Below, piece by piece: positions 352-499 of a stretch of DNA of 18,195 nt. Source of the DNA: a bacterium. GTDB taxonomy: Bacteria; SAR324; NAC60-12. The notes under the pieces were generated by a model. The model was not told the origin of the DNA. It made no database searches and saw only the letters and a list, made by a program, of their open reading frames with translations. The stretch spans positions 1 through 18,195 of the forward strand of contig CBDDTI010000648.1 of NCBI GenBank assembly GCA_965233585.1, given 5' to 3'. The first letter of the stretch is position 1. The number at the start of each line of letters is the position of its first letter. Position numbers and translations under genes: made by a program.

Positions 352-458
352 TCTGTTCTGTTTTATTTTACTGTTAAGTATTTGCTTAATCTAGGTTCCA
401 GTCCCCTCACCTTTGTAATATATGTATATATAAATAGCTGTTTTAAATTTCAACGGTT

Positions 459-499
459 ACTTTTGAAAATGTATGTAGAGTACATACGAAACGTCAAGT
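459..499 (+). ncRNA. Minimal type I hammerhead ribozyme, U3-A8 core variant
   Basis: ACTT (stem I)-TTGAAAA-T-GTATGTA gag TACATAC (stem II)-GAAAC-GTC-AAGT (stem I'). Same architecture as 8352-8391, with CUGANGA replaced by UUGAAAA. Confidence 0.8.

What the first reader, a model, noticed from the sequence alone, without database searches (positions are those of the whole stretch)
452..499. Hammerhead ribozyme with a compensated U3-A8 catalytic core
Seen: relative to the homologous motif at 8352-8391, the core box changes at exactly positions 3 and 8 (CUGAAGA to UUGAAAA). Stem I, stem II, GAAAC-GUC and the upstream AACGGT are retained even though the surrounding UTRs have diverged. Known: C3-G8 is a Watson-Crick tertiary pair in the hammerhead core, and U3-A8 is a rare tolerated swap. 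Inference: this is a selected, functional variant in a separate PLE subfamily, and searches fixed on CUGANGA would miss it.
Basis: partly seen in the sequence, partly recalled or inferred. Interest (0 to 1): 0.72.

Follow-up and report, generated by a model that had tools for sequence, protein, structure and literature searches.

The report
Retrotransposon hammerhead ribozyme, known U3-A8 variant
The motif is a genuine small hammerhead-type self-cutting RNA in the tail of a Penelope-like retrotransposon, whose two core changes still pair and look selected, but this variant was already described in 2011 and 2014.

Summary
Observation confirmed. Window 458-499 (+) has every invariant hammerhead core letter. 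The core box is TTGAAAA (463-469), against CTGAAGA in the related motif at 8351-8391, so it differs at core positions 3 and 8.

It lies 107 nt after the stop codon of a 5'-truncated Penelope-like element (PLE) ORF and 68 nt before the element's 3' end.

It is not decay of one copy:
- In the 40 aligned relatives, 20 have U3+A8, 19 have C3+G8, 1 has G3+A8, and none has C3+A8 or U3+G8.
- A descriptor left free at positions 3, 7 and 8 gave 75 hits in the assembly and 0 in the reversed assembly: 45 C-G, 28 U-A, 1 C-A, 1 U-U.
- U-A cores sit in 6 of 17 lineages with different, covarying stems.
- An ORF tree needs at least 2 switches.

Cutting itself is untested. RNA-library contigs run across the predicted cut site, which settles nothing.

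The variant is published. Natural U3-A8 covariation was reported by Perreault et al. 2011, and U3-A8 PLE hammerheads (about 1,300 hits in Schistosoma) by Cervera and de la Pena 2014. This scan has also met U3-A8 hammerheads before, in phage DNA.

Verdict: a sound new member of a known kind, of low interest.

The window is animal DNA inside an assembly filed as prokaryotic.

The parts
1..351 (+). C-terminal end of a Penelope-like element ORF (GIY-YIG endonuclease part), cut off by the contig start; stop TAA at 349-351
   Evidence: Pfam GIY-YIG E 1.8e-4, 22.2 bits against a cut-off of 22.6. It is 114/116 identical to the 320-aa ORF of copy C265. That ORF aligns to the RT-to-EN part of a 1006-aa RVT_1+GIY-YIG ORF. 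It is also 88% identical to a 792-aa protein with RVT_1.
452..457 (+). AACGGT block just upstream of helix I. It is conserved as AAC(G/C)GT in most copies of this clade; role unknown.
   Evidence: Alignment of 40 relatives. It is absent from the other hammerhead lineages.
459..462 (+). Helix I, 5' strand (ACTT)
   Evidence: Pairs with 496-499. These helix I columns covary across 36 distinct motifs. The descriptor required at least 3 of these pairs.
463..469 (+). Core box U3 U4 G5 A6 A7 A8 A9 (TTGAAAA), the U3-A8 variant
470..470 (+). Bulged U between A9 and G10.1
   Evidence: This is a listed feature of PLE hammerheads (PMC4209133). In the strict set the bulge is U in 47 of 75 motifs and A in 28 of 75.
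471..487 (+). Helix II hairpin: 7 bp (471-477 with 481-487), loop GAG, closed by G10.1-C11.1
   Evidence: G10.1-C11.1 is present in 36 of 36 distinct motifs and the other helix II pairs covary.
488..495 (+). G12 A13 A14, then A15.1, C, G, U16.1 (a self-complementary ACGU that can form helix III only between two copies), then C17. Predicted cut between 495 and 496.
   Evidence: The palindrome covaries ACGU/AUAU across lineages. The dimer model comes from PMC4209133. The cut site is inferred, not observed.
496..499 (+). Helix I, 3' strand (AAGT)
500..563 (+). 3' terminal stretch of the element. Similarity to the other copies ends at about 556-565. This copy lacks the 29-nt tail that some copies carry.
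   Evidence: BLAST of window 1-1500 against the assembly. Flanks of 14 copies, 4 of them with the tail. Loose ends at 563 in RNA-library contigs.
7292..7338 (-). Inverted, strongly 5'-truncated copy of the C3-G8 sister hammerhead (with AACGGT), abutting the 5' end of the next element
7334..8245 (+). 5'-truncated ORF of the sister PLE subfamily (end of RT plus the endonuclease part); stop TAG at 8243-8245
   Evidence: BLASTP to the C339 PLE ORF, E 2e-8. Its tail is 72% identical in protein to window 1-348.
8345..8391 (+). Sister hammerhead with the canonical C3-G8 core (CTGAAGA at 8356-8362), preceded by AACGGT

Best explanation
Window 458-499 is a minimal type-I hammerhead ribozyme of the kind carried near the 3' end of Penelope-like retrotransposons. 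Its core pair is U3-A8 in place of C3-G8.

Shown here:
- The motif has all invariant core letters.
- It lies in the 3' UTR of a PLE copy, 107 nt after the stop codon and 68 nt before the element's end.
- U3-A8 is the consensus of a young, multi-copy subfamily.
- U3-A8 recurs in several PLE lineages of the same genome, with covarying helices.
- No lineage survives with only one of the two changes.

Inferred:
- Helix III is only A15.1-U16.1 around a self-complementary ACGU, so a single copy should be nearly inactive.
- Two copies, in a read-through transcript of tandem or partly tandem elements or on two RNAs, would pair their ACGU stretches into a 4-bp helix III.
- Each would then cut after C17 (window 495), trimming long transcripts to unit length.
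- The U-A pair takes the structural place of the C-G pair, so the active core fold is kept.
For: Core and layout were read directly.

PLE context:
- GIY-YIG ORF tail.
- 98% identity to a longer copy whose ORF aligns to the RT-to-EN part of a full 1006-aa RVT_1+GIY-YIG ORF. That ORF is flanked by two direct hammerheads.
- 88% identity to a 792-aa RVT_1 protein.
- 5' truncation, inverted neighbouring copies (13 of 14 same-family pairs are inverted, 1 is direct) and a 29-nt tail in 4 of 14 copies. Craig et al. 2021 describe all of these for PLEs (PMC8557442).

Selection on the pair:
- Among 40 relatives: 20 U3+A8, 19 C3+G8, 1 G3+A8, 0 single-change forms.
- Strict descriptor free at 3, 7 and 8: 45 C-G, 28 U-A, 1 C-A, 1 U-U of 75, against 0 hits in the reversed assembly.
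- Tool count on 36 distinct motifs: C-G 23, U-A 11, other 2.
- 6 of 17 clusters hold U-A cores with unrelated stems.
- The ORF tree of 22 rows needs 2 changes, and 0 of 200 bootstrap trees place U3-A8 on one side of a branch.
- The hammerhead block is 88% identical between subfamilies, against 39% and 56% in its flanks.
- Neither change sits in a CpG, so deamination hot spots do not explain them.

Published precedent:
- C3-G8 is a Watson-Crick pair in the active structure (PMC3884650).
- The pair covaries to U3-A8 in nature, and such variants cut in vitro (PMC3088659).
- U3-A8 occurs in PLE hammerheads (PMC4209133).
Against: - No cleavage was observed.
- All RNA runs on hand were stored as contigs. 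Several bridge 495/496 (for example 425-561, 424-552, 427-563), and no common start or end was reported. Contigs cannot show ends, and DNA may be present in those libraries.
- No second same-strand copy of this family lies in the window or in any contig of this fragmented assembly. The tandem partner that the dimer model needs is therefore not shown for this family.
- ViennaRNA does not favour the hammerhead fold. The monomer MFE is -7.7 against -5.8 kcal/mol for the hammerhead pairing. The dimer MFE is -21.7 against -12.1 for the double hammerhead.
- Published PLE minimal hammerheads cut only weakly in vitro.
- Some very successful PLE clades lack hammerheads altogether, so the motif may not be needed for transposition.
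- Copies of one family share both letters by descent. The independent evidence is about two switches, not 28 copies.
- Helices I, II and III were required by my descriptor. Only the 3-8 pair was free.
Confidence: 0.72

Rival explanations
1. The motif is conserved but does not work as a ribozyme. The hairpin and flanking letters would be kept for another reason, such as recognition of the 3' end of the RNA by the element's reverse transcriptase. Or the hammerhead merely rides along with PLEs. On this reading the U3-A8 form is a weak or dead cutter that costs the element nothing.
For: - Published PLE minimal hammerheads have low in vitro activity (PMC4209133).
- Naiad and Chlamys PLEs thrive without hammerheads, and the authors raise the idea that hammerheads parasitise PLEs (PMC8557442).
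- RNA-library contigs run across the cut site.
- The hammerhead fold is not the predicted minimum-energy fold.
- A second conserved block lies near the 3' end, at about 528-563. This shows that other constraints act on this tail.
Against: - A mere protein-binding hairpin would not keep all eleven unpaired catalytic letters invariant across 17 lineages while the stems change.
- It would not require changes at positions 3 and 8 to come together twice.
- The two single-change motifs (C-A and U-U) are single copies.
Confidence: 0.2
2. It is a decayed copy. The family core is CTGAAGA, and this copy picked up unlinked C-to-T and G-to-A changes after insertion.
For: Both changes are transitions, the commonest kind of substitution.
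Against: - 14 copies carry the identical U3-A8 core string.
- All 20 members of this branch, including five old copies at 70-85% identity, have TTGAAAA, and there are no single-change forms.
- Neither site is in a CpG.
- The same pair occurs in five other clusters.
Confidence: 0.04
3. It is a chance resemblance to a hammerhead in AT-rich non-coding DNA.
For: The motif is short. Rfam gives no hammerhead match, at gathering score or at E<=10.
Against: - 75 descriptor hits against 0 in the reversed assembly.
- Fixed position after PLE ORF stops: 107 nt and 106 nt in the two window copies.
- All 75 hits lie on the small, gene-poor contigs and none on the 3.5 Mb of bacterial-type contigs.
- Rfam also misses the canonical sister, so the miss reflects the models.
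Confidence: 0.01

Closest known systems
Minimal hammerhead ribozymes in the pseudo-LTRs of Penelope-like elements, including the U3-A8 form found through the Schistosoma mansoni Cercyon element (Cervera and de la Pena 2014, PMC4209133; passages read)
   Same: - Type I layout.
- A bulged nucleotide between A9 and G10.1.
- A G10.1-C11.1 closing pair.
- A long helix II (6-7 bp) and a short helix I.
- Helix III reduced to a palindrome that implies action as a dimer.
- Position near the 3' end of an RT+GIY-YIG element.
- Frequent inverted pairs of motifs.
- Many sequence families per genome with compensatory changes.
- U3-A8 in place of C3-G8.
   Different: - The host is different, and so are the PLE families. 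The host is an animal, probably a cnidarian: the nearest named homologue is from Hydractinia at only 35% identity, and one run label reads 'coral metagenome'.
- U3-A8 makes up 28 of 75 motifs here, and both core states occur inside one closely related clade.
- This motif keeps a 2-nt palindromic insert (ACGU), as in the Drosophila and rotifer style variants described in that paper, rather than the barest form.
Natural U3-A8 core covariation in hammerheads of bacteria and phages (Perreault et al. 2011, PMC3088659; passage read)
   Same: The same compensated core pair. The paper states that such variants had already been shown to cut in vitro.
   Different: Those examples are mostly full three-helix ribozymes with tertiary contacts, in prokaryotic or phage DNA. 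They are not dimer-type motifs in a retrotransposon.
Small PLE-associated hammerhead variants that cleave as dimers (Lunse, Weinberg and Breaker, RNA Biol 2017)
   Same: By its title, small PLE-associated hammerheads that act as dimers.
   Different: I could not read it. It is not held and I know it only from reference lists. It may contain activity data on core variants that bear on this case.
Rfam hammerhead models
   Same: The same catalytic core consensus.
   Different: No match at gathering score in the whole window nor at E<=10 on 420-540. The canonical sister at 8351-8391 is also missed. The likely reason is the missing helix III; that reason is my inference.

Membership tests
Hammerhead ribozyme | Invariant core letters U4 G5 A6, A9, G12 A13 A14, A15.1-U16.1, and H (not G) at position 17 | tested here: met
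   All are present at 464-466, 469, 488-490, 491/494 and C495. They are invariant in 36 of 36 distinct motifs, although the descriptor required them.
Hammerhead ribozyme | Watson-Crick pair between positions 3 and 8 (C-G, or a compensated U-A) | tested here: met
   T463 and A468. With positions 3 and 8 left free, 73 of 75 motifs are C-G or U-A, as are 34 of 36 distinct motifs.
Hammerhead ribozyme | Three helices around the core, supported by covariation | tested here: inconclusive
   Helices I and II are present and covary strongly, but my descriptor demanded pairing there. Helix III exists only as A15.1-U16.1 plus a palindrome, so it needs a second copy. No partner copy is seen on the same strand for this family.
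Hammerhead ribozyme | Site-specific self-cleavage after position 17 | not testable with these tools
   Only contig-level RNA data were on hand. Contigs bridge 495/496 and no ends were reported. This gives no verdict either way.
Hammerhead ribozyme | Match to a curated Rfam hammerhead covariance model | tested here: not met
   0 matches at gathering score and 0 at E<=10. The canonical C3-G8 neighbour also fails, so the test does not discriminate for this minimal type.
PLE minimal hammerhead (Cervera and de la Pena 2014) | Lies in the terminal repeat or 3' region of an element that encodes RT plus GIY-YIG endonuclease | tested here: met
   The element's 3' end is at about 563.
PLE minimal hammerhead (Cervera and de la Pena 2014) | [quoted passage not shown] | tested here: met
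   T470, G471-C487 and ACGT at 491-494. The features are as listed in PMC4209133.
PLE minimal hammerhead (Cervera and de la Pena 2014) | A second copy close by (tandem or nearby), so that a dimer can form | tested here: inconclusive
   The contig starts inside the element. Same-family partners elsewhere are inverted (C86, C624). The one direct pair in the assembly belongs to a C3-G8 family (C339).
Penelope-like element | 5'-truncated copies, adjacent inverted copies, and a 30-40-bp tail at one end | tested here: met
   compared with PMC8557442.

The most novel reading that the evidence does not exclude
The core pair has switched between C3-G8 and U3-A8 at least twice among the PLE lineages of one animal genome, possibly in both directions. 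No lineage with only one of the two changes persists. U3-A8 is the usual state of a whole group of lineages (U bulge, ACGU helix III).

If so, the master copies of these elements are under continuing selection for a catalytically competent hammerhead. That would argue against the published suggestion that hammerheads are dispensable passengers of PLEs. It would also make U3-A8 a stable alternative core rather than a rare tolerated swap.
Probability: 0.35. Interest if true: 0.4.

Novelty: new member of a known kind. Interest (0 to 1): 0.25.

Why it matters
The finding adds a clean comparative case to published work. Within one genome, the hammerhead core pair 3-8 behaves as a true base pair under selection in retrotransposon ribozymes. 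It also confirms that standard models (Rfam) and fixed CUGANGA descriptors miss these motifs.

It opens no new question. The variant and its occurrence in PLEs are already published, and what is missing is bench evidence of cutting.

The practical by-product matters more for database users. About two thirds of this 12-Mb assembly, filed as a prokaryote genome, looks like animal DNA rich in retrotransposons.

Tried and rejected
- **Rfam.** Gathering search of the whole window gave 0 hits. At E<=10, 420-540 gave 0 hits, and 8310-8430 gave two chance matches to unrelated families (E 4.2 and 6.3).
- **RNA evidence for cutting.** 23 runs were listed, all kept as contigs. I laid four (X6, X7, X10, X1). 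Contigs cover the element and bridge 495/496, no common starts or ends were reported, and depth falls after about 563-576. No verdict on cleavage or on expression, because DNA may be present in those libraries.
- **Thermodynamic folding of monomer and dimer.** The hammerhead pairing is not the minimum-energy structure in either case. This is not decisive for a 4-bp helix I and helix III.
- **Search for a full-length copy of this family.** Eight copies were extended upstream. The longest ORF is 320 aa and runs into a contig end (C265). The rest are 5'-truncated or broken, so no 5' repeat or tandem partner could be examined.
- **First, looser descriptor.** 113 hits, with C-G 59, U-A 34 and 20 others. 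It included evident chance hits on the large bacterial-type contigs, so I replaced it with the strict descriptor plus the reversed-sequence control.
- **AACGGT block.** I looked by eye for a pairing partner that would extend helix I or mask the cut site. I found at most 3 bp, with no covariation in the sisters that have AACCGT. No role is proposed.
- **ORF tree.** Of the 26 ORF tails found, 4 were dropped because they had fewer than 8 BLASTP partners (C61, C123m, C339, C707). 22 were kept.
- **Papers not held.** Lunse et al. 2017 and Przybilski and Hammann 2007b.
- **Earlier notes of this scan.** None near this place.

Full report
**What is in the sequence**

On the + strand the layout is:
- AACGGT at 452-457
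- a 4-bp helix I (459-462 with 496-499)
- the core box TTGAAAA at 463-469
- one bulged T at 470
- a 7-bp helix II hairpin at 471-487, closed by G-C
- GAAA at 488-491
- CG at 492-493, T494 and C495

That is a type-I hammerhead layout with every invariant core letter. Positions 3 and 8 read U and A in place of C and G. The predicted cut is after C495.

The related motif at 8351-8391 has CTGAAGA, preceded by AACGGT at 8345-8350. A third, inverted copy of that canonical form lies at 7292-7338 on the minus strand.

In a pairwise alignment of the two 3' regions, the 48-nt block 452-499 is 42/48 identical. The UTR before it is 39/100 and the stretch after it 42/75. The six differences are core position 3, core position 8, three loop II positions, and one letter just outside helix I.

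**Context**

The window is contig C648 of a 12.0-Mb, 747-contig assembly. The assembly appears to be a mixture.
- The 15 contigs of 50 kb or more (3.5 Mb) are 84% covered by open frames of at least 150 codons.
- The 732 smaller contigs (8.5 Mb) are only 28% covered, and 239 of them under 5%.

The window has only three ORFs of 120 aa or more. It also carries a THAP domain (E 5.9e-8) and a weak DDE_Tnp_4 match. I read it as animal DNA.

Window 1-351 is the end of an ORF with a GIY-YIG match (E 1.8e-4, just under Pfam's cut-off). The evidence that this ORF belongs to a PLE is:
- It is 114/116 identical to the tail of a 320-aa ORF on copy C265.
- That ORF aligns to the RT-to-endonuclease part of a 1006-aa ORF on C339.
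- The C339 ORF has RVT_1 and GIY-YIG and is flanked by two direct hammerheads 3.5 kb apart.
- The best database relative of the C265 ORF is a 792-aa protein, 88% identical, with RVT_1.
- Named relatives come from a hydrozoan and a rotifer, at 35-39% identity.

So the motif sits in the 3' UTR of a Penelope-like element (PLE), 107 nt after the stop codon. The sister motif lies 106 nt after its own stop.

BLAST of window 1-1500 against the assembly shows that similarity among copies ends at about 556-565, which marks the element's 3' end. Four of 14 copies go on for a further 29 nt beginning TTACGATGGCC. The window's copy does not.

Copies are mostly 5'-truncated. Of 14 same-family pairs on one contig, 13 are inverted and 1 is direct. 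Truncation, inverted neighbours and a 30-40-bp tail at one end are the published hallmarks of PLE insertions (PMC8557442, passages).

**Decay of one copy, or a family trait?**

Forty relatives of the 3' region that cover the hammerhead were aligned.
- 20 have U3 with A8. These are 15 young copies at 91-100% identity to the window and 5 old copies at 70-85%, several of which have decayed elsewhere in the motif.
- 19 have C3 with G8.
- 1 has G3 with A8.
- None has C3 with A8 or U3 with G8.

Fourteen copies carry the identical 33-nt U3-A8 core string. It is the commonest single hammerhead sequence in the assembly. The family consensus is therefore U3-A8, and the first refutation condition is not met. 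Neither changed letter lies in a CpG.

**Is the pair selected beyond this family?**

I scanned the whole assembly with a descriptor of the PLE minimal hammerhead that left positions 3, 7 and 8 free. It demanded the other core letters, one bulged letter, G10.1 and C11.1, at least 5 bp in helix II, at least 3 bp in helix I, and a self-complementary helix III.
- It gave 75 hits in the assembly and 0 in the reversed assembly.
- All 75 lie on contigs of 22.5 kb or less.
- Positions 3/8 read C-G in 45, U-A in 28, C-A in 1 and U-U in 1. The other twelve combinations were absent.

The 75 hits reduce to 36 distinct sequences in 17 clusters: 9 clusters with only C-G, 5 with only U-A, 1 mixed C-G and U-A (the clade of this finding), 1 with C-G plus the single C-A copy, and 1 consisting of the single U-U copy. 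The U-A clusters have unrelated helix I and helix II sequences.

On a MAFFT alignment of the 36 distinct motifs, the pair-counting tool gave C-G 23, U-A 11 and other 2 for the 3-8 pair. For the whole structure, 87% of cells were paired, against 28-42% when the partners were slid. The helices were demanded by my descriptor, so only the 3-8 result is an unbiased test.

**How many independent events?**

Copies share letters by descent, so I built a tree of ORF tails ending within 400 nt upstream of the hammerheads.
- 26 tails were found. 4 with fewer than 8 BLASTP partners were dropped, leaving 22.
- The U3-A8 label needs 2 changes. None of 200 bootstrap trees puts it on one side of a branch.
- The finding's family (2 rows) is sister to eight C3-G8 rows inside a clade with 99/100 support.
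- Four other U3-A8 rows form their own clade (100/99).

The hammerhead sequences tell the same story. The finding's motif is most like its C3-G8 sisters, not the other U3-A8 motifs. The tree is unrooted and one fork is unresolved, so two scenarios fit equally well: two gains of U3-A8, or one gain followed by one return to C3-G8. Either way there are two double changes, and no single-change lineage has more than one copy.

**How it probably works**

Helix III is only the A15.1-U16.1 pair around a 2-nt insert, which together form the self-complementary ACGU. The published model for such motifs is that two copies pair their palindromes into one helix III. Each then cuts after position 17, trimming read-through transcripts of tandem or partly tandem elements (PMC4209133, passages; PMC6765202, passages).

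The C3-G8 pair of the active structure is established (PMC3884650, passages). The pair is reported to covary to U3-A8 in nature, and such variants were already known to cut in vitro (PMC3088659, passage). I infer that U3-A8 keeps the same fold here.

None of this was observed directly.
- All RNA runs on hand were stored as contigs.
- The four I laid hold the element and include contigs that cross 495/496. No common ends were reported. That gives no verdict.
- ViennaRNA does not rank the hammerhead pairing as the lowest-energy fold, for the monomer or the dimer.
- No same-strand partner copy of this family is present in this fragmented assembly.

**Comparison with what is known**

Every distinctive feature is in print:
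- The bulged nucleotide between 9 and 10.1, the G10.1-C11.1 pair, the palindromic 15.2-16.2, the dimer architecture, the many covarying families per genome, and the motifs on opposite strands close together are all in Cervera and de la Pena 2014.
- That paper also reports 'U3-A8 instead of C3-G8' in a Schistosoma PLE. It says its first descriptor missed this form, and that a second descriptor retrieved about 1,300 hits.
- Perreault et al. 2011 reported the covariation in nature three years earlier.
- A full-text search for 'hammerhead' with 'U3-A8' returned only the 2014 paper.
- I could not read Lunse et al. 2017 or Przybilski and Hammann 2007b.
- Earlier notes of this scan record U3-A8 hammerheads several times in phage DNA and reach the same view, that the variant is known.

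Rfam's models do not detect this minimal type at all. They miss the variant and its canonical sister alike.

**Verdict**

The motif is a real PLE hammerhead, and its U3-A8 core is a family trait under selection. Catalysis is inferred, not shown.

It is a new member of a known kind. What this genome adds is modest: U3-A8 is common rather than rare (28 of 75 copies), and both core states occur within one closely related clade, which gives at least two compensated switches.

Noticed in passing
whole assembly G000 (window = C648): The assembly is filed as one prokaryote genome but appears to be a mixture. The 15 contigs of 50 kb or more (3.5 Mb) are densely coding. Most of the 732 small contigs (8.5 Mb) are gene-poor and carry animal-type retrotransposons. 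GC content is similar throughout (0.33-0.47), which may explain why they were put together.
   Followed up: partly
window 7292-7338 (-) and 8345-8391 (+): Two canonical C3-G8 hammerheads of a sister PLE subfamily lie in inverted orientation around a 5'-truncated ORF (7334-8245). This is the typical PLE arrangement of an inverted truncated copy at the 5' end.
   Followed up: partly
just past the 3' end of family copies (e.g. C86, C412, C566, C624); window 8467-8497 for the sister family: A 29-nt tail beginning (C/T)TACGATGGCC follows the 3' end in 4 of 14 copies of the U3-A8 family and 4 of 7 copies of the sister family. It is nearly the same in both subfamilies although their UTRs have diverged. 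The window's copy at 563 lacks it. The same letters recur as loose ends at 563 in RNA-library contigs.
   Followed up: partly
window 528-563 and 8430-8466: A second conserved block lies close to the element's 3' end, downstream of the hammerhead, and is shared between the two subfamilies. It may be where the reverse transcriptase recognises its RNA; I did not test this.
   Followed up: no
window 452-457, 8345-8350, 7333-7338 (-): AAC(G/C)GT immediately upstream of helix I is kept in most copies of this hammerhead clade but is absent from the other lineages. I found no pairing partner with covariation.
   Followed up: partly
window 2709-3020 (-) and 12186-12731 (-): An ORF fragment with a THAP domain (E 5.9e-8) and another with a weak DDE_Tnp_4 (Harbinger-type transposase) match (E 0.0036). 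Both point to further mobile-element remains of eukaryotic type in the window.
   Followed up: no
assembly-wide, strict hammerhead set: Core state tracks other features. All 28 U3-A8 motifs have a U bulge and an ACGU helix III, and 27 of 28 have C17. All 27 motifs with an A bulge and AUAU helix III are C3-G8, often with U17 or A17.
   Followed up: partly
C643 (about 7390-7435, -) and C707 (1916-1958, +): These are the only two motifs in the strict set with an unpaired 3-8 combination (C-A and U-U). Each is a single copy, and both are probably decayed.
   Followed up: no
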